From a virus (Duplodnaviria > Heunggongvirae > Uroviricota > Caudoviricetes): a stretch of 5,244 bases of DNA. Shown here piece after piece: positions 1 through 5,244 of the stretch. A program made the translations under genes and the position numbers. The notes below the pieces were generated by a model that did not search any database, was not told the origin of the DNA, and saw only the letters and a list, made by a program, of their open reading frames with translations. The stretch lies in IMG/VR virus record IMGVR_UViG_2740892233_000010; one strand, 5' to 3'. Each line of letters begins with the position of its first letter. Position 1 is the first letter of the stretch.

Positions 1-704
1 TGCCCCACGGTTCCGTACTGCCCCTTTGACAGGTCCGCTTTCGGATGGTTAAGGCGGCTCATGTCCTGCACATCATGCAGACAATGGTCCGCCGGAATGA
101 TGTCGTTATATTTGCATGCTGCACCGCCCGGTGTCACCGTACTGCGGCGCGCCAGCTGCTTAATACGCGGGTCCGGACGGTCATATGTCTCCGGCAGCGG
201 AAGGCCTTCACCATATGCCATGCTGTTTGNNNNNNNNNNACAGGCGACACCGCCCGGTGTCACCGTACTGCGACGCGCCAGCTGCTTAATGCGCGGGTCC
301 GGACGGTCATATGTCTCCGGCAGCGGAAGGCCTTCACCATATGCCATGCTGTTTGACTGCCCCGCCAGAACCACAACAAAGTAATACTCCGGGTCTCTGG
401 TGGCGCTGATTACTGTGCCTTCTCCATCCGACGGCTTCACCAACACAGGTGTGGTGACATCACCTTCCGCCGCAATGGCCTGCATCAGAGTATAAGGCGT
501 GATGGCCACCGGGCTGCCAAATGGCTGCCACCCCTCCTTCAGTTTTTGTGTCAGCTTTTCCGCAAGGTCTGACGGCGACGCCGCCCTGACAACATCATAA
601 TGTTTAATCGNNNNNNNNNNGCCCTCTTTCAGTTTGTGTGTCAGCTTTTCCGCAAGGTCTGACGGCGACGCCGCCCTGACAACATCATAATGTTTAATCG
701 ACAT
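1..704 (-). CDS. nanS-p: Prophage sialate O-acetylesterase NanS-p-like (N-terminal DUF1737-type region plus SGNH/SASA esterase), 5' part; gene continues beyond window start
   Basis: Minus-strand ATG at 704-702 with GGGAG about 8 nt upstream. Manual translation: MSIKHYDVVRAASPSDLAEKLT(H/Q)KLKEGWQPFGSPVAITPYTLMQAIAAEGDVTTPVLVKPSDGEGTVISATRDPEYYFVVVLAGQSNSMAYGEGLPLPETYDRPDPRIKQLARRSTVTPGG..CKYNDIIPADHCLHDVQDMSRLNHPKADLSKGQYGTVG, open to position 1. The GQSN motif and N-terminal region match my recollection of NanS-p. The frame is interrupted by 10-N runs at 230-239 and 611-620 with duplicated flanks. Confidence 0.8.
   Translation of the reverse strand, partial: MSIKHYDVVRAASPSDLAEKLTHKLKEGXXXXIKHYDVVRAASPSDLAEKLTQKLKEGWQPFGSPVAITPYTLMQAIAAEGDVTTPVLVKPSDGEGTVISATRDPEYYFVVVLAGQSNSMAYGEGLPLPETYDRPDPRIKQLARRSTVTPGGVACXXXXNSMAYGEGLPLPETYDRPDPRIKQLARRSTVTPGGAACKYNDIIPADHCLHDVQDMSRLNHPKADLSKGQYGTVG
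122..356. repeat. Near-identical tandem duplication flanking a 10-N run (230-239); probable unmerged assembly overlap
   Basis: About 108 nt at 122-229 recur at 249-356 with 2 substitutions (synonymous cgt/cgc in the nanS-p frame). Copy edges next to the gap diverge (GGAAC vs GGVAC at protein level). Confidence 0.9.
532..700. repeat. Near-identical tandem duplication flanking a 10-N run (611-620)
   Basis: About 80 nt at 532-610 recur at 621-700 with about 3 substitutions near one edge, giving TQKLKEG vs THKLKEG in the nanS-p N-terminus. Confidence 0.9.
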
Positions 705-790: not shown

Positions 791-817
791 AAAAAAAAGG
801 CCACGCCATGCGCAGCC
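791..817 (-). terminator. Putative intrinsic terminator (minus strand)
   Basis: Minus-strand RNA GGCUGCGC-AUG-GCGUGGCC (8-bp stem with two G-U pairs; plus coordinates 799-817) followed by a U8 tract (A-run 791-798 on plus strand). Confidence 0.45.
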
Positions 818-922
818 GGAAATAAAGGGATAACGATGATAGTTTGAGAAAAACANNNNNNNNNNGGCCACGCCATGCGCAGCCGGAAATAAAGGGATAA
901 CGATGATAGTTTGAGAAAAACA
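799..922. repeat. Identical 57-nt tandem duplication flanking a 10-N run (856-865)
   Basis: 799-855 and 866-922 are identical by eye (ggccacgccatgcgcagccggaaataaagggataacgatgatagtttgagaaaaaca). Confidence 0.9.
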
Positions 923-1004
923 GAAACAACACTTTTGTGGCAAAGCATGGTGCCGGGTGCCTCCCGGTGAATTCAGTATCAGCACCTGAATNNNNNNNNN
1001 NATT

Positions 1005-1029
1005 GCCCGAACCCATTCGGGCATTTTTT
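1005..1029 (+). terminator. Intrinsic terminator (plus strand)
   Basis: Perfect hairpin GCCCGAA-CCCA-TTCGGGC (1005-1022) followed by ATTTTTT (1023-1029). Confidence 0.6.
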
Positions 1030-1035
1030 ACCCAT

Positions 1036-1059
1036 AAAAAAGCCCCTCCGGAGAGGGGC
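1036..1059 (-). terminator. Intrinsic terminator (minus strand), back-to-back with the plus-strand one
   Basis: Hairpin GCCCCTC-CGGA-GAGGGGC (1042-1059); on the minus strand it is followed by U6 (A-run 1036-1041 on plus strand). Confidence 0.6.
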
Positions 1060-1140
1060 ATGTTTGCATGCACATTCTTTTTCTTGCATGGTGCCGGGTG
1101 CCTCCCGGTGAATTCAGTATCAGCACCTGAATCCGCGATT

Positions 1141-1326
1141 ATCACATATACCTGGTTGCTGATTGCCCCTCCGCACAGGGGGATTCACCATGCAGTAGTA
1201 TTTTTAATAAACAGTAAACAAAAAAATCNNNNNNNNNNTCCCATATACCTGGTTGCTGATCGCCCCTCCGCACAGGGGGATTCACCATGCAGTAGTATTT
1301 TTAATAAACAGTAAACAAAAAAATCA
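1141..1326. repeat. Near-identical tandem duplication flanking a 10-N run (1229-1238)
   Basis: About 88 nt at 1141-1228 recur at 1239-1326 with a few substitutions (atcacatatacc vs tcccatatacc; gattgcccc vs gatcgcccc). Intergenic. Confidence 0.9.
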
Positions 1327-1490
1327 AGCATTATGCAGGCTGTTTCTTTTTATCACCGGCCACAGCAATACCACAATGCCGCAGACCAGCACCCCATCCG
1401 CCAGCACCGACATGATTCTGCTGGTGAAATCCACCATCACCACCAGAAACAGCAGGAGTGCAGCCACAGCCAGGCGCAGTTTTACCGTCA
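1324..1490 (-). CDS. Putative small membrane protein (about 55 aa, two predicted hydrophobic helices), possibly translationally coupled to the TerB-like gene
   Basis: GTG at 1490-1488 overlaps the TerB-like stop (GTGA) with GGAG 8 nt upstream; stop TGA at 1326-1324. Manual translation: (M)TVKLRLAVAALLLFLVVMVDFTSRIMSVLADGVLVCGIVVLLWPVIKRNSLHNA. Codon third positions look E. coli-like (ctg, gtg). Below the length cut-off of the supplied ORF track; no homolog recalled. Confidence 0.3.
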
Positions 1491-2098
1491 CTGGTGATTC
1501 TCCAGACGAAGACCCAGAACACCGGCAATCTCTTCCAGCACCTTGCGCTCTTCCGGCTCAATTTCGCCGTCTGCCTCCGCAATGGCCACCGCCACATCCA
1601 GCACATCTTCCGCTTCACGCGTATCGTGTTTCACATCCTCGATCTCACGTAACGCCGCACGACGACCAATTTTAAAGTTCGTATCCAGCTGACCGATAAT
1701 GGTTGCGCTAATCGCATTAATTTCTGACGTAAACGCGGACAGCGCAGGCTGATTACGCAGTACCTGTTCGATCTTCGCTTTCTAGGAAGCCTCACATTCA
1801 CCATCTGCANNNNNNNNNNAATCTCGCGTAACGCGGCACGACGACCAATTTTAAAATTGGTATCCAGCTGACCGATAATAGTTGCGCTAATCGCATTAAT
1901 TTCCGAGGTAAACGCAGACAACGCAGGCTGATTACGTAAGACCTGTTCGATCTTCGCTTTCTCGGATGCCTCGCATTCACCATCTGCATAGGCCACCAGG
2001 TATGCAGCGTTAATCACCGCCTGTGCCAGATCGCGTTTCTCAAACTTTTTAATTTCCGCTGCCGCTCTGCGGGTTTTCTTTTTGAAGATTCCAAACAT
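1487..2098 (-). CDS. TerB-family (tellurite-resistance TerB-like) protein, about 143 aa once the artefactual duplication is removed
   Basis: ATG at 2098-2096 with AGGAA 7 nt upstream; stop TGA at 1489-1487. Protein: MFGIFKKKTRRAAAEIKKFEKRDLAQAVINAAYLVAYADGECEASEKAKIEQVLRNQPALSAFTSEINAISATIIGQLDTNFKIGRRAALREIEDVKHDTREAEDVLDVAVAIAEADGEIEPEERKVLEEIAGVLGLRLENHQ. The two acidic ADG/SDG-containing helical repeats match the TerB pattern as I recall it. The literal span includes a duplicated 169-nt segment plus 10 N (1641-1819), which shifts the frame. Confidence 0.85.
1641..1988. repeat. Diverged tandem duplication (169 nt x2) flanking a 10-N run (1810-1819) inside the TerB-like gene
   Basis: 1641-1809 vs 1820-1988 differ at about 12 positions. 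Translated in the TerB frame all differences are synonymous except one: the left copy has TAG (plus 1782-1784, ctagga) where the right copy encodes Glu (ctcgga). Confidence 0.9.
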
Positions 2099-2230
2099 CG
2101 TGACGTTCCTTTGGGTGGGTGAGCCAACGCCCGGGAGCGATCTGCCCACAGAGAAAGTCACACTGACCACTCCGTAAGCTCACCCCCGAAAGGCTCTGTG
2201 GTTGATATGCGCCGGGCGTGGCGCAGATAC

Positions 2231-2254
2231 AAAAAAGGCCCGCCGAAGCGAGCC
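2231..2254 (-). terminator. Intrinsic terminator downstream of the tRNA cluster (minus strand)
   Basis: Minus-strand RNA GGCUCGC-UUCG-GCGGGCC (7-bp stem with one G-U pair, UUCG tetraloop; plus 2237-2254) followed by U6 (A-run 2231-2236), 14 nt after the tRNA-Arg(UCU) 3' end. Confidence 0.65.
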
Positions 2255-2267
2255 TGGAAAATAAGTG

Positions 2268-2344
2268 TGGCGCGTTGTAGTGGAGTCGAACCACTGACCG
2301 ATTGCTTAGAAGGCAATTGCTCTGTCCGACTGAGCTAACAACGC
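2268..2344 (-). tRNA. argO: tRNA-Arg (anticodon UCU)
   Basis: Manual cloverleaf: GCGTTGT-TA-GCTC(D)-GAGC, anticodon stem ATTGC/GCAAT, loop CTTCTAA (anticodon TCT), T-arm with GGTTCGACTCC, acceptor 3' ACAACGC, discriminator G, CCA encoded. 77 nt. Symbol assigned from position in the ileZ-argN-argO trio. Confidence 0.85.
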
Positions 2345-2357
2345 ATGATGCTGATAA

Positions 2358-2434
2358 TGGACCGCCATCGGGGACTTGAACCCCGCGCAGCCAGCTTCGA
2401 AGGCTGGCGCTCTGTCCCGATGAGCTAATGGCGG
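2358..2434 (-). tRNA. argN: tRNA-Arg (anticodon UCG)
   Basis: Manual cloverleaf: acceptor CCGCCAT/ATGGCGG (C1-G72), D-stem GCTC/GAGC, anticodon stem CCAGC/GCTGG, loop CTTCGAA (anticodon TCG), T-arm CGGGG-TTCAAGT-CCCCG, discriminator T, CCA encoded. 77 nt. Isotype read from the anticodon only. Confidence 0.8.
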
Positions 2435-2443
2435 TATGTGATA

Positions 2444-2519
2444 TGGTGGCCCTTGCTGGATTTGAACCAGCGACCTGGCGATTATGAGTCGCTCGCTCTC
2501 ACCACTGAGCTAAAGGGCC
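2444..2519 (-). tRNA. ileZ: tRNA-Ile2 (anticodon CAU, lysidine type; formally could be tRNA-Met)
   Basis: GGCCCTTTAGCTCAGTGGTGAGAGCGAGCGACTCATAATCGCCAGGTCGCTGGTTCAAATCCAGCAAGGGCCACCA, 76 nt. Perfect acceptor stem GGCCCTT/AAGGGCC, anticodon loop CTCATAA. Very close to E. coli ileX as I recall it. Confidence 0.85.
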
Positions 2520-2547
2520 GAGCCAAAAAATAATAATCAGATGAAAA

Positions 2548-3261
2548 TCAATAATCAAGCCCTTGCCTGGATACATATCTGTCTGGCGGGAAGCCATAAT
2601 AGCGGTGAAATACAGAAATAAAGTAGGACCTGCTTGAATAACCGCATTTTTCTGCTATAGCCTGTCCATATCCATGCCGGGAACATAACATATTTACAGC
2701 AACACGCATCCGCTCTTCCAGCAACAAGCGACTGAACATGCCCCCTTCATTTTTCAGTTTTGTCTTTAACAAACTCTCACTCATATGCAACTGTAGAGCA
2801 ATCGCACCAAGCGTCCAGCTTGCTGATATATCTGTCTGAATTATCGCCCTGACTTTGGCACTTATGCTGGATAAACATCCACTTAAAAACAATGACATCC
2901 GTTCATCTGTTTCAAACAGAGACAGGCAGGCCATCATAAGAAACATATCCGTGGCCTCTCCGGAAAATCCCTGGCTGGTAATTAAAGCCGCAGCCAACGC
3001 AGGATTGTTGGGTTCCAGCAACAGGTAAAGCGGAATGTCAGTCAGACGAGTCCTCGTCAGCTTATGCTGACTTTCCAGATATTGACTTACGACGGATTCG
3101 CTTATATCGACAATTTTAACTTTGCCATAATGCATAAGGAAAAGCTCCCTGATGCATTTGGTGGCCAGAACGACTGAGCCTGGCTTAAGTGACAACGTAT
3201 CCTTTTCAAGAAAAATATTAATTGGGGAGCAAACCATGATAACTGAACAGACAACAGCCAT
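2548..3261 (-). CDS. AraC/XylS-family transcriptional regulator (AppY/GadX-like), prophage-borne
   Basis: 237-aa ORF from ATG 3261 to TGA 2548-2550. C-terminal double HTH (WTLGAIALQLHMSESLLKTKLKNEGGMFSRLLLEERMRVAVNMLCSRHGYGQAIAEKCGYSSRSYFISVFHRYYGFPPDRYV). N-terminus MAVVCSV resembles AppY (MDYVCSV). Gene is visibly AT-rich and uses rare codons (manual count 5 ATA, 5 AGG, 1 AGA). Exact identity (PatE/Psr-like?) not resolved. Confidence 0.88.
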   Translation of the reverse strand: MAVVCSVIMVCSPINIFLEKDTLSLKPGSVVLATKCIRELFLMHYGKVKIVDISESVVSQYLESQHKLTRTRLTDIPLYLLLEPNNPALAAALITSQGFSGEATDMFLMMACLSLFETDERMSLFLSGCLSSISAKVRAIIQTDISASWTLGAIALQLHMSESLLKTKLKNEGGMFSRLLLEERMRVAVNMLCSRHGYGQAIAEKCGYSSRSYFISVFHRYYGFPPDRYVSRQGLDY

Positions 3262-3296
3262 TATAATTTTACTTTCATTAGCAATTGGTTAGCTCA

Positions 3297-3327
3297 ATTA
3301 TAGCCCCAAAAGGTAAATTATCATCAA
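3297..3327 (-). promoter_or_regulatory. Candidate sigma70 promoter for the AraC-family gene
   Basis: Minus-strand consensus -10 TATAAT (plus 3297-3302) with a TTGATG -35-like hexamer (plus 3322-3327), 19-bp spacer, about 35 nt upstream of ATG 3261, in an AT-rich leader. Spacer is longer than optimal. Confidence 0.3.
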
Positions 3328-3381
3328 CACATAAGCAAAGGACTGACAGGTGTCGCCCCCCCACCAGCCGCCCATTCACCA

Positions 3382-3409
3382 CAAATAAAAAGCCTTCAGG
3401 ACTGAAGGC
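3382..3409 (-). terminator. Intrinsic terminator overlapping the stop of the small upstream ORF (minus strand)
   Basis: Hairpin GCCTTCA-GGAC-TGAAGGC (3392-3409) followed on the minus strand by UUUUUAUUUG (plus A-run 3382-3390). The stop TGA (3398-3396) lies in the stem. Confidence 0.55.
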
Positions 3410-3593
3410 GTCTGTAACAACCGCACTGATAGTCTGCCAGACCCGCCATAACAAGCTGGGTCAGTATTAACTGGCAGCGTTCGCGTGAAAGGTAAGTATT
3501 CTGCGCAACCTCCCCGACTGTCGCCGGTTCGGTAACGCTTAATTCATTAAACACCACTCTGGCGGTTTCGGTCATATCCTGCTGTTTCAGCAT
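3396..3593 (-). CDS. Small putative winged-helix DNA-binding protein (PapI/FaeA-like), about 65 aa
   Basis: ATG at 3593 with AGGGA 7 nt upstream. MLKQQDMTETARVVFNELSVTEPATVGEVAQNTYLSRERCQLILTQLVMAGLADYQCGCYRRLQS. The layout (leader, TVGEVAQ...SRERCQLILTQLVMAGL helix pair) resembles PapI (…[30 protein letters not shown]…) as recalled. The longer ORF-track start at 3716 is a GTG inside the terminator U-tract and was not used. Confidence 0.5.
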   Translation of the reverse strand: MLKQQDMTETARVVFNELSVTEPATVGEVAQNTYLSRERCQLILTQLVMAGLADYQCGCYRRLQS

Positions 3594-3716
3594 GTCTTTT
3601 TCCCTTTTTCGGTTAACGTGACACACCAATAACTCTTGTCGAAAAAGCCAGCAAGCTGAAAGAACGGTATTAATAACCACCAGCGAATTTATTGCGCTGC
3701 TGTATATTACGGACAC

Positions 3717-3737
3717 AAAAAAACCACCTTCCGGTGG
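3717..3737 (-). terminator. Strong intrinsic terminator about 100 nt downstream of Q (tR'-like)
   Basis: Minus-strand RNA CCACC-GGAA-GGUGG (plus 3724-3737) followed directly by U7 (A-run 3717-3723). Confidence 0.7.
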
Positions 3738-3834
3738 CTTCCTTGTGCGAAAAAACTTGCATTTCGCCTCGCGATACAGCTTTGCGAAGCTTACAGGAAT
3801 TCAAGCTGTTTCTGCGTAAAAAAGCAAGCTTTTT
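3738..3834 (-). promoter_or_regulatory. Candidate Q-dependent late promoter (pR'-like) and qut region
   Basis: Positional inference only: the interval between the Q stop (3835) and the tR'-like terminator is where pR' and the qut site sit in lambdoid phages. Only weak hexamers visible (e.g. TTGCTT ... TTGAAT); not pinned down. Confidence 0.25.
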
Positions 3835-4377
3835 TTATCGAAATGAATCGTGCATAGGTACATAAAGCATGTGTTCAGCCACGGCTAACCAACCTGCAAT
3901 ACGTTTCTCACATGTGCTGAAACACCATTCCGGGTGAGTACGATTTAAACATTCTGCCATTTTTCTCTTACTCATTCCCCGTCCTTCGTACCTTTGCCGG
4001 AGAATATTGATTAGCCCGGGATATTCCCCAAGCACCTCACTGATAACGCGATCAATAATCAACGCCTCTGTGTCTGTACAATGTGACAACCAGCTCTTCT
4101 GCTTCCCTCTGGTCATATCCCGAAAAAATGCCTCAAGTTCCGGTTTTTCCAGCCCGGATTTCTTCATGCTGCGTAAAACCTCATTAACTGCTGTTTTCGT
4201 CAGCTTTTTCGAAACCAGTAACCGGTTAAACATATTTCCGGATTTACCCCCACCGATATACGACCACCGCCCCCACATCCGTAATTTCCCCTGGATCCAG
4301 ACTGCTTCCAGCGTGTTCAGGCGTAAATGTTCGCCGCTTTTGCCTGTAATTTCCGGATATATCATATTTACGCTCAC
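3835..4377 (-). CDS. Late-gene antitermination protein Q homolog (QuuD/933W-Q type)
   Basis: 180-aa ORF just downstream of rusA, overlapping its stop (GTGA at 4374-4377; alternative ATG at 4365). N-terminal WGRW motif and C-terminal region (ALIIDRVISEVLGEYPGLINILRQRYEGRGMSKRKMAECLNRTHPEW) line up with recalled DLP12 QuuD/933W Q (ERWGAWA...AMIICGCMARL...). Followed by a short leader and strong terminator. Confidence 0.7.
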   Translation of the reverse strand: MSVNMIYPEITGKSGEHLRLNTLEAVWIQGKLRMWGRWSYIGGGKSGNMFNRLLVSKKLTKTAVNEVLRSMKKSGLEKPELEAFFRDMTRGKQKSWLSHCTDTEALIIDRVISEVLGEYPGLINILRQRYEGRGMSKRKMAECLNRTHPEWCFSTCEKRIAGWLAVAEHMLYVPMHDSFR

Positions 4378-4733
4378 TCACTCTCAATTTTGTAAATCTT
4401 CACACCCAGCCGTCCACCAGATACTGGCTGACCGCGCACAATATTGATTTCATCAAACTGCTCGTCATCAATGAGCACTTCCGCATGCGTCAGCGCATCC
4501 AGCGGTGCTTTCAGAATGTTGTCCAGGTCACGGCGGCGCTTATCCGGTGGCTCTGCAATCACCTTTATCGCCAGCCTTCCGGACAGGCTTAATTTCAGCC
4601 GCTGCTGGCGAACAATAAGCGCCACAGCCCGGCGATAACGCTTTCCCTCCTCCGAGATAAAATATGTGCTGCCACGGCGTCGCCAGTAAGTGTTCACCGT
4701 CGGCGGGTAAGGTAAAACCAAATCTATGAGCAT
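4374..4733 (-). CDS. rusA: Holliday-junction resolvase RusA
   Basis: ATG at 4733 with strong SD (AAGAGGTGA) 5 nt upstream. MLIDLVLPYPPTVNTYWRRRGS...EGKRYRR...PPDKRRRDLDNILKAPLDALTHAEVLIDDEQ...GGRLGVKI shares the PDRRRRDLDN, DALT, DD.Q and GGRL blocks with E. coli RusA. Confidence 0.9.
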   Translation of the reverse strand: MLIDLVLPYPPTVNTYWRRRGSTYFISEEGKRYRRAVALIVRQQRLKLSLSGRLAIKVIAEPPDKRRRDLDNILKAPLDALTHAEVLIDDEQFDEINIVRGQPVSGGRLGVKIYKIESE

Positions 4734-4745
4734 CAGTCACCTCTT

Positions 4746-5201
4746 TTACCCAAGCACGCCAGTTGCAAAGGCGTGATCAAGAAAACGAAAAATTAAATCA
4801 ACCTGAGAACCATGCTTTTCTTCGAACGCCAGCGGATCCGCATGAAGCTCGTTGTGATGCTCCCGACACAGCGGTAGCGTGAAAATATCGTGAGATTTTG
4901 TCCCCATTCCCCCCTGACCATGACCAATCAGGTGATGCGGATCGTCAGCAGGCTTACCACAACACGCACACGGCTGTGTCTTCACCCAGTGCGTGTATTT
5001 CTCGTTAACCCAGCGGCGACGTTTAGGTCGTTTCATGAAAGATTCCGGAGACTCAGGATCAACGGCAATGCTGACCACCGTCTTTTCCTGTGGCGGTTTT
5101 TGCTGGTGAGCGTGAGGCAGCGGCGCAAGATTTTTTGTGCGCTGCTTCAGTATGCTGGTGGCGGTCTGCTCTCCCGGTACGATGTCGCTTTCACGGTACA
5201 T
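4746..5201 (-). CDS. DUF1364/YbcO-like nin-region protein (Cys/His-rich, putative nuclease); start uncertain
   Basis: C-terminal 96 aa (from ATG 5036: MKRPKRRRWVNEKYTHWVKTQPCACCGKPADDPHHLIGHGQGGMGTKSHDIFTLPLCREHHNELH...) parallel DLP12 YbcO in length and Cys/His spacing. The frame stays open upstream to the window edge; ATG 5201 overlaps an upstream-frame stop, so the start may be 5036, 5201, or outside the window. Stop TAA at 4748-4746, 12 nt before the rusA start. Confidence 0.7.
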   Translation of the reverse strand: MYRESDIVPGEQTATSILKQRTKNLAPLPHAHQQKPPQEKTVVSIAVDPESPESFMKRPKRRRWVNEKYTHWVKTQPCACCGKPADDPHHLIGHGQGGMGTKSHDIFTLPLCREHHNELHADPLAFEEKHGSQVDLIFRFLDHAFATGVLG

Positions 5202-5244
5202 TGAGCGGATTTTTTCCGCACGCAACCCCAGCGAACGACGTAAT
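5191..5244 (-). CDS. 3' end of an unidentified upstream nin-region ORF (partial)
   Basis: A second minus-strand frame is open from the window edge and ends ...ITSFAGVACGKNPLNVP-TGA at 5193-5191, overlapping ATG 5201 of the next gene. Only 17 codons visible; no homolog recognised. Confidence 0.25.
   Translation of the reverse strand: MTSFAGVACGKNPLNVP

What the first reader, a model, noticed from the sequence alone, without database searches (positions are those of the whole stretch)
1641..1988. Two alleles of the same TerB segment in tandem, differing only by synonymous changes plus one amber codon
The 169-nt copies either side of the N run differ at about 12 positions. In the TerB frame all are synonymous third-position changes except a single TAG replacing a Glu codon in the left copy. 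That pattern indicates two naturally diverged copies (paralogous prophages or mixed strains) collapsed into one scaffold, not random error. The literal sequence is therefore chimeric and one allele may be a truncated (about 47 aa) variant.
Basis: seen in the sequence. Interest (0 to 1): 0.55.

Follow-up and report, generated by a model that had tools for sequence, protein, structure and literature searches.

The report
Scaffold join of two prophage TerB alleles
The apparent tandem repeat is an assembly artefact: two contigs from different prophages of one pathogenic E. coli strain were placed end to end around a 10-N spacer, one carrying an intact TerB-family gene and the other a common, already annotated pseudogene copy with an amber stop.

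Summary
Copies 1641-1809 and 1820-1988 flank an N10 run and differ at 16 positions, not about 12. In the minus-strand TerB frame, 15 differences are synonymous (13 third-position, 2 first-position Leu) and one turns GAG into TAG at codon 46.

All six N10 runs in the window are flanked by duplicated sequence. The seven pieces between them alternate between different prophages.

In one finished chromosome (E. coli 03_3013), the left piece is 100% identical to a prophage at 1.237 Mb. There the gene is annotated "TerB family, internal stop". The right piece is 100% identical to a prophage at 3.614 Mb with the intact 143-aa gene. None of 129 related loci has two TerB copies.

The TAG allele is real and common, with an exact 65-mer in about 577 finished E. 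coli records. It is a decaying pseudogene: 67 of 70 TAG alleles carry a second 5' lesion, against 14 of 56 intact alleles. In its best-matching finished loci (its own 5' end is not in the window) this allele lacks the start codon, so the proposed 47-aa product is not supported.

This is an ordinary artefact of low interest.

The parts
1641..1809 (-). Left copy. It is the end of contig piece 6 (1239-1809) and covers TerB codons 37-93 of the pseudogene ('A') allele.
   Evidence: 100% identical to L001 (NZ_CP074958.1, 1.237 Mb), where the gene is annotated 'TerB family protein, internal stop'.
1782..1784 (-). Amber codon TAG ('cta' on the + strand) at TerB codon 46.
   Evidence: The same TAG is present in 7 finished loci annotated 'internal stop'. 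The exact 65-mer around it occurs in about 577 finished E. coli records.
1810..1819 (.). N10 spacer joining two contigs.
   Evidence: It is one of six identical-length N runs, all flanked by duplicated sequence.
1820..1988 (-). Right copy. It is the start of contig piece 7 (1820-5244) and covers TerB codons 37-93 of the intact ('B') allele, with GAG at 1961-1963.
   Evidence: 100% identical over 3425 nt to L130 (NZ_CP074958.1, 3.614 Mb) and L003. The gene there is WP_000466957.1, 143 aa.
1989..2098 (-). 5' end of the intact TerB allele (codons 1-36, ATG at 2096-2098).
   Evidence: Translation. The annotated CDS in L003/L130 is 432 bp.
1488..1640 (-). TerB 3' end (codons 94-143 plus TGA), carried only on the A-type piece. 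It differs from the B allele at only one base here, the penultimate codon (CAG in the window, CTG in L003).
   Evidence: Alignment. Joining 1820-2098 to 1488-1640 gives exactly 432 bp, which Pfam scores as TerB PF05099 at 60.4 bits against a cut-off of 24.4.
1324..1491 (-). DUF3927 gene. Its GTG start overlaps the TerB TGA stop (GTGA).
   Evidence: Pfam PF13064, E=4e-17. Annotated as intact in all finished loci examined.
114..355 (.). Junction 1: a 116-nt overlap (114-229 / 240-355, 6 mismatches) around N 230-239. The left piece is A type and the right piece is B type.
531..700 (.). Junction 2: an 80-nt overlap (531-610 / 621-700, 3 mismatches) around N 611-620. The left piece is B type and the right piece is A type.
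799..922 (.). Junction 3: a 57-nt identical overlap (799-855 / 866-922) around N 856-865.
945..1132 (.). Junction 4: the 47-nt stretch 945-991 is repeated at 1086-1132. Piece 5 (1002-1228) comes from a third prophage type and begins with 84 nt absent from A and B.
   Evidence: Piece 5 is 100% identical to RM10386 at 1.94 Mb.
1142..1325 (.). Junction 5: an 87-nt overlap (1142-1228 / 1239-1325, 2 mismatches) around N 1229-1238.
2268..2519 (-). tRNA cluster of the B-type prophage: Arg(TCT), Arg(TCG), and a CAT-anticodon tRNA annotated as Ile. It lies just upstream of the intact TerB and is absent from the A-type locus.
   Evidence: ARAGORN and the PGAP annotation of L003/L130. L001/L002 have no tRNAs here.

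Best explanation
The 'tandem alleles' are a scaffolding artefact.

The source is a draft genome of an enterohaemorrhagic-type E. coli (O26/O103/O111-like) that carries many near-identical lambdoid prophages. Short-read assembly broke the late region of these prophages (nanS-p esterase, DUF3927, TerB) into small contigs, each ending where the paralogous copies start to differ.

Those contigs were then laid on one locus, most likely by ordering against a reference. They were concatenated with fixed N10 spacers, and overlapping ends were not merged because they are not identical.

At 1810-1819 the end of a contig from prophage A meets the start of a contig from prophage B. Prophage A carries a TerB pseudogene with an amber codon. 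Prophage B carries an intact TerB downstream of an Ile/Arg/Arg tRNA cluster. Codons 37-93 therefore appear twice.

Both alleles are real natural sequences. The 15 synonymous differences reflect divergence under purifying selection before the A copy was inactivated. The TAG allele is a widespread, decaying pseudogene of a dispensable accessory gene of the P1 TciA / TerB family.

Shown: the duplication at all six N runs, the origin of the pieces in separate prophages of one finished genome, the absence of any true tandem copy, and the pseudogene status. Inferred: the exact assembler and scaffolder behaviour.
For: - All six N10 runs are flanked by duplicated sequence.
- The pieces alternate A, B, A, shared, third type, A, B when compared with two or three prophages of finished genomes.
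- In the single finished chromosome NZ_CP074958.1, piece 6 is 100% identical at 1,237,208-1,237,778 and piece 7 is 100% identical at 3,614,188-3,617,612. RM10386 shows the same arrangement with one mismatch.
- On the B-type locus the pieces tile with overlaps of exactly the observed lengths. For example, piece 6 maps to L130 2099-2669 and piece 7 to 2501-5925, which overlap by 169 nt.
- Merging the overlap restores exactly the 432-bp annotated gene.
- None of 129 related loci has two TerB copies or the literal junction, and none has N10 runs.
- In 3 of 5 junctions the first base of the right-hand piece is itself a paralog-discriminating mismatch. This is as expected if contigs break where repeat copies diverge.
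- The TAG allele is annotated 'internal stop' by PGAP in 7 finished loci.
- TAG alleles carry a second 5' lesion in 67/70 cases against 14/56 for GAG alleles (Fisher 9e-18).
- Private variants have a higher nonsynonymous to synonymous ratio in TAG alleles, 6:8 against 11:45 (p=0.088).
Against: - No reads or assembly metadata are available, so the scaffolding procedure is inferred rather than seen.
- The source strain itself is not identified. The argument rests on finished relatives that are 100% identical to the pieces.
- Piece 5 was not located in the same genome (03_3013) as the other pieces, only in RM10386 and other genomes.
- The selection test among TAG alleles is weak (p=0.088), and the loci are not phylogenetically independent.
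Confidence: 0.93

Rival explanations
1. A real partial tandem duplication of TerB codons 37-93 exists in the source genome, and the N10 marks a small unsequenced gap.
For: The literal sequence shows two in-register copies 179 nt apart. The gap size is formally unknown.
Against: - 0 of 129 related loci, including 10 from finished genomes, have a second copy or the junction.
- The two copies are 9.5% diverged, and each is 100% identical to a different prophage allele in one finished genome.
- The same duplicated structure recurs at all six N runs. Six independent tandem duplications, each centred on a gap, is not credible.
Confidence: 0.02
2. The two alleles come from two different strains in a mixed or contaminated sample, rather than from paralogous prophages of one strain.
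For: Both alleles occur widely in different E. coli lineages, so a mixture could also supply them. This cannot be excluded without reads.
Against: Single finished chromosomes carry both alleles at 100% identity in separate prophages (03_3013; RM10386). Such genomes have 8-12 copies of this region. A mixture is therefore unnecessary.
Confidence: 0.04
3. The differences, including the TAG, are sequencing or consensus errors in one copy of a single true sequence.
For: None beyond the presence of a stop codon in an otherwise conserved gene.
Against: - 15 of 16 differences are synonymous (P=3.8e-9 by chance).
- Both haplotypes, including the TAG, are reproduced exactly in many independently finished genomes.
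Confidence: 0.005

Closest known systems
Unmerged overlapping contig ends in reference-ordered draft scaffolds of multi-prophage EHEC genomes (collapsed or fragmented repeat assembly)
   Same: Fixed-length N spacers are present. The suffix of one contig repeats as the prefix of the next. Flanks map to different paralogous prophages in finished genomes, and finished relatives have 8-12 copies of the region per genome.
   Different: Nothing differs in kind. The only notable point is that the overlap preserves two natural alleles rather than identical sequence. The software that produced it is unknown.
TerB family (Pfam PF05099), specifically the lambdoid-prophage 'tellurite resistance TerB family protein' WP_000466957.1
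   Same: The merged intact allele is identical to WP_000466957.1 as annotated in L003/L130. It scores 60.4 bits on PF05099 against a cut-off of 24.4.
   Different: The left-hand allele has an internal TAG. In the finished loci that match it, it also lacks the start codon, so it is a pseudogene and not a functional family member.
[quoted passage not shown]
   Same: Full-length homology at 42% identity over residues 1-142, E=1e-23. Related prophage genes are annotated tciA/tciB in phage JLK-2012. P1 tciA scored as non-essential in a genome-wide CRISPRi screen (PMC10695390), which fits the idea that inactivation is tolerated.
   Different: The genomic context differs: here it is the lambdoid late region between the Q/tRNA cluster and DUF3927/nanS-p, not the P1 tciABC cluster. 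No functional data exist for the lambdoid copy.

Membership tests
Scaffold-join artefact (overlapping contigs around an N spacer) | The duplication abuts an N run of conventional fixed length, and the same structure recurs at the other N runs. | tested here: met
   Six N10 runs. Five have suffix-prefix overlaps of 57-169 nt at 90.5-100% identity. The sixth has a 47-nt repeat offset by 84 nt of piece-specific sequence.
Scaffold-join artefact (overlapping contigs around an N spacer) | The two flanks derive from different genomic places in finished genomes. | tested here: met
   Piece 6 is 100% identical at 1.237 Mb and piece 7 is 100% identical at 3.614 Mb of NZ_CP074958.1.
Scaffold-join artefact (overlapping contigs around an N spacer) | Removing the overlap restores the structure seen in finished genomes. 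| tested here: met
   1820-2098 plus 1488-1640 equals 432 bp, the length of the annotated TerB CDS.
Scaffold-join artefact (overlapping contigs around an N spacer) | No reads span the junction in the source data. | not testable with these tools
   Raw reads and assembly metadata are not available.
True tandem segmental duplication | Both copies are contiguous on one molecule in at least some related genomes. | tested here: not met
   129 of 129 related loci have exactly one copy of the 26-mer and one BLAST match to TerB. No locus has the literal junction.
TerB family (PF05099) | Profile match above Pfam's gathering score. | tested here: met
   The intact merged allele scores 60.4 bits against 24.4, E=2.6e-16, over residues 26-138.
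TerB family (PF05099) | An uninterrupted reading frame with a start codon, as required for the left allele to be a functional member. | tested here: not met
   TAG at codon 46. In the matching finished loci L001/L002 the 5' end is replaced, with an in-frame stop upstream and no usable in-frame start codon for the domain (the only one is GTG at codon 35). PGAP flags it 'internal stop'.
Phage P1 TciA-like proteins | Full-length sequence homology to P1 TciA. | tested here: met
   tblastn gives 42.3% identity over residues 1-142, E=1e-23, to AF234172.1 tciA.
Phage P1 TciA-like proteins | A phenotype of tellurite or colicin resistance, or of cell-division inhibition. | not testable with these tools
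   This needs experiments. The name itself is by homology only.
Functional gene with a read-through or recoded amber codon | An intact start, and purifying selection maintained on the sequence downstream of the stop in stop-bearing alleles. | tested here: not met
   67 of 70 TAG alleles have a second 5' lesion, against 14 of 56 GAG alleles. The private N:S ratio is 6:8 in TAG alleles against 11:45 in GAG alleles (p=0.088). No suppressor tRNA is present: the anticodons are TCT, TCG and CAT.

The most novel reading that the evidence does not exclude
The amber TerB allele may be more than a passive wreck. It could have spread among co-resident lambdoid prophages of many E. coli lineages because losing this TciA/TerB-family accessory gene is advantageous, or because gene conversion between prophages propagates it. 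It is found in about 10% of finished genomes, on at least three different Q/antiterminator backbones. The downstream, translationally overlapped DUF3927 gene is always kept intact. My data show the wide distribution and the retention of DUF3927. They do not separate selection from hitch-hiking.
Probability: 0.07. Interest if true: 0.35.

Novelty: not a real feature. Interest (0 to 1): 0.08.

Why it matters
The value here is mainly data hygiene.

- Read literally, this window contains a TerB gene with an internal duplication and a stop codon, plus five other false duplications, including two inside the 5' end of the nanS-p esterase gene. Gene callers, pseudogene counts or repeat scans run on it would report things that do not exist.
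- Simply deleting the duplicated stretch would still leave a chimera of prophages A, B and a third type.
- The biological content is already annotated in RefSeq: an intact TerB/TciA-family gene in one prophage and a widespread amber pseudogene copy in another.

Tried and rejected
1. Real tandem duplication. I looked for a second TerB copy or the literal junction, allowing 0-30 nt of spacer, in 129 related loci. None was found.

2. Functional amber allele (read-through, restart or suppressor tRNA).
- The window's tRNAs have anticodons TCT, TCG and CAT, so none is a suppressor.
- The longest ORF after the TAG is 48 aa starting at a GTG, and it lacks most of the TerB domain.
- TAG alleles are strongly enriched for second lesions.
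- The N:S comparison of private variants points to relaxed constraint but is only p=0.088. It is suggestive, not conclusive.

3. A second lesion specific to TAG alleles in the 'full-length' form. The +1 A-run shift after the ATG also occurs in 13 of 56 GAG alleles. On its own it is therefore not proof of decay. I pooled it with the 5' replacement only for the enrichment test.

4. Similar N10 junctions in the 129 related loci, as a clue to the source pipeline. There were none, only single Ns.

5. The phage collection. Only 4 phage records hold the gene at the DNA level, and none has the TAG allele at high identity. This gave the tciA name but no further insight.

6. Literature search on tciA and prophage. 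It gave the P1 naming and non-essentiality, and nothing on the lambdoid amber allele.

Full report
**Observation**

The window holds six runs of exactly ten Ns: 230-239, 611-620, 856-865, 992-1001, 1229-1238 and 1810-1819. The reported feature sits at the last one. Positions 1641-1809 and 1820-1988 are in-register 169-nt copies with 153 identities, so there are 16 differences rather than the "about 12" reported.

On the minus strand both copies read as TerB codons 37-93. The 16 differences fall in 15 codons:
- 13 are synonymous third-position changes.
- 2 are synonymous first-position Leu changes.
- 1 is GAG to TAG at codon 46 (left 1782-1784, right 1961-1963).

Only 23% of possible single-base changes in this stretch are synonymous. 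The chance of at least 15 of 16 being synonymous is 3.8e-9.

**The junction is one of a series**

Every N10 run is flanked by duplicated sequence:
- Five are suffix-prefix overlaps of 116, 80, 57, 87 and 169 nt.
- At the sixth (992-1001), the 47 nt before the gap recur 84 nt into the next piece.

I compared the seven pieces between N runs with prophage loci from finished genomes. They alternate in origin:

| Piece | Coordinates | Best match |
|---|---|---|
| 1 | 1-229 | type A, 100% |
| 2 | 240-610 | type B, 100% |
| 3 | 621-855 | type A, 100% |
| 4 | 866-991 | identical in A and B |
| 5 | 1002-1228 | a third prophage type (100% at 1.94 Mb of RM10386) |
| 6 | 1239-1809 | type A, 100% |
| 7 | 1820-5244 | type B, 100% over 3425 nt |

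On the B-type locus the pieces tile with overlaps of exactly the observed lengths. For example, piece 6 maps to L130 2099-2669 and piece 7 to 2501-5925, an overlap of 169 nt.

**Both alleles live in one genome, in different prophages**

In the finished chromosome of E. coli 03_3013 (NZ_CP074958.1):
- Piece 6 is 100% identical at 1,237,208-1,237,778.
- Piece 7 is 100% identical at 3,614,188-3,617,612.
- These two places are 2.4 Mb apart.

O26 strain RM10386 shows the same arrangement with a single mismatch in piece 6. Such genomes hold 8-12 copies of this region.

The two contexts differ upstream of TerB:
- The B locus has the Ile/Arg/Arg tRNA cluster, an AraC-family gene, a DUF1133 Q-like gene, RusA and DUF968. 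This matches window 2268-5244.
- The A locus has two hypothetical genes and a different Q antiterminator, and no tRNAs.

Homology between A and B stops at about TerB codon 17. Joining 1820-2098 to 1488-1640 gives exactly the 432-bp CDS annotated as WP_000466957.1.

**No true tandem duplication anywhere**

A scan of IMG/VR for the 26-mer around codon 46 (allowing G or T) returned 120 loci. With nine loci from finished genomes this gave 129 loci (a tenth finished locus, L130, was fetched later). Each has exactly one copy of the 26-mer and one BLAST match to TerB. None has the literal junction, and none has N10 runs.

**How the artefact arose (inferred)**

Contig ends coincide with positions that distinguish the paralogs:
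- In 3 of 5 suffix-prefix junctions, the first base of the right-hand piece (240, 621, 1820) is itself a mismatch to the left copy.
- Piece 6 stops one base before the polymorphic Y37/C37 site.
- The 153 nt to the left of 1641 are almost identical among copies, differing from the B allele only at the penultimate codon.

This is what a graph-based short-read assembly of many near-identical prophages would produce. The contigs were then placed on one locus, probably by reference ordering, and joined with fixed N10 spacers. Non-identical overlaps were not merged. The software is unknown, so this step is an inference.

**What the amber allele is**

It is a real and common pseudogene.
- PGAP annotates it "tellurite resistance TerB family protein, internal stop" in seven finished loci. 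These come from O26, O157:H7, O55:H7 and O111:H8 strains, from strain 03_3013 (serotype not given in the record), and from dog and echidna isolates.
- The exact 65-mer containing the TAG is present in about 577 finished records.

Among the 129 loci, 72 carry TAG and 57 carry GAG. TAG alleles almost always have a second lesion at the 5' end:
- About 38 have the first ~17 codons replaced by unrelated sequence with an in-frame stop, and the only in-frame start before the TAG is GTG at codon 35.
- 29 have a +1 shift in the A-run just after the ATG.
- Only 3 of 70 keep an in-frame ATG.
- Second lesions are present in 67/70 TAG alleles against 14/56 GAG alleles (Fisher 9e-18). The caveat is that the loci share ancestry and are not independent.

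Variants private to the TAG group are 6 nonsynonymous to 8 synonymous, against 11 to 45 in the GAG group. This suggests relaxed constraint, but at p=0.088 it is not decisive.

Piece 6 stops at codon 37, so its own 5' end is not in the window. Its best matches (L001/L002) are of the 5'-replaced type. The TAG is at codon 46, but there is no in-frame start that would give such a peptide: the only one before the TAG, GTG at codon 35, would give about 11 aa.

**Comparison with known families**

- The intact protein is a TerB-family protein: PF05099 at 60.4 bits against a cut-off of 24.4.
- It is 42% identical over its full length to phage P1 TciA.
- Near relatives are annotated tciA/tciB in phage JLK-2012.
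- P1 tciA scored as non-essential in a genome-wide CRISPRi screen (PMC10695390). That fits an accessory gene whose loss is tolerated.
- The function of the lambdoid copy is not known from these data.

**Verdict**

Its main interpretation is supported: two paralogous prophage alleles were collapsed into a chimeric scaffold. Mixed strains are not required, because single finished chromosomes carry both alleles. The tandem arrangement is not a real genomic feature, and the two alleles are already annotated in RefSeq. Interest is low.

The most novel reading still open is that the amber allele has spread by selection or by inter-prophage gene conversion while the overlapping DUF3927 gene is retained. 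I rate this at about 7% probability and modest interest.

Noticed in passing
window 230-239, 611-620, 856-865, 992-1001, 1229-1238 (with flanks 114-355, 531-700, 799-922, 945-1132, 1142-1325): Five more N10 junctions have the same duplicated-flank structure. Two lie inside the 5' end of the nanS-p (SASA esterase) gene, so that gene is also falsely duplicated and chimeric in the literal sequence.
   Followed up: yes
window 240, 621, 1820: In 3 of 5 suffix-prefix junctions the very first base of the right-hand piece is a mismatch to the left copy. The contigs begin exactly on a paralog-discriminating base, which gives a clue to how the assembler broke the repeats.
   Followed up: partly
L004 1640-1680, L007, L008 (equivalent to window ~2070-2098): The A-run just after the TerB ATG is A6 or A7 in different loci. 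A7 puts the ATG out of frame, and PGAP then uses a TTG one base later. A7 occurs in 13 of 56 intact (GAG) alleles as well as 29 of 70 TAG alleles, including finished genomes. It could be a slippage-prone tract or an alternative start, and it remains unexplained.
   Followed up: partly
window 1324-1491 (minus strand): The DUF3927 gene starts with a GTG that overlaps the TerB stop (GTGA). It remains intact and annotated in all seven finished loci where TerB is a pseudogene.
   Followed up: partly
window 1491-1493 (penultimate TerB codon, minus strand): Piece 6 has CAG (Gln) where most alleles have CTG (Leu). Only three finished genomes (03_3013, OkiPb01691, OkiPb01707) share this base, which may mark the lineage of the source strain.
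   Followed up: partly
window 2444-2519 (minus strand): ARAGORN calls this CAT-anticodon tRNA Met. PGAP annotates the identical gene in L003/L130 as tRNA-Ile, which from general knowledge would be an ileZ-type tRNA read as Ile after lysidine modification.
   Followed up: no
window 2548-3261 (minus strand): A 237-aa AraC-family HTH protein (PF00165/PF12833) is encoded between the Q-like DUF1133 gene and the tRNA cluster of the B-type prophage. From memory it resembles the prophage-encoded AraC-like regulators of EHEC (the PatE/Psr class). This was not tested.
   Followed up: no
window 1002-1085: Piece 5 begins with 84 nt absent from the A and B loci. This stretch includes a GC-rich hairpin next to A/T runs (aaaaaagcccctccggagaggggcatg), which looks like a terminator and is specific to the third prophage type.
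   Followed up: no
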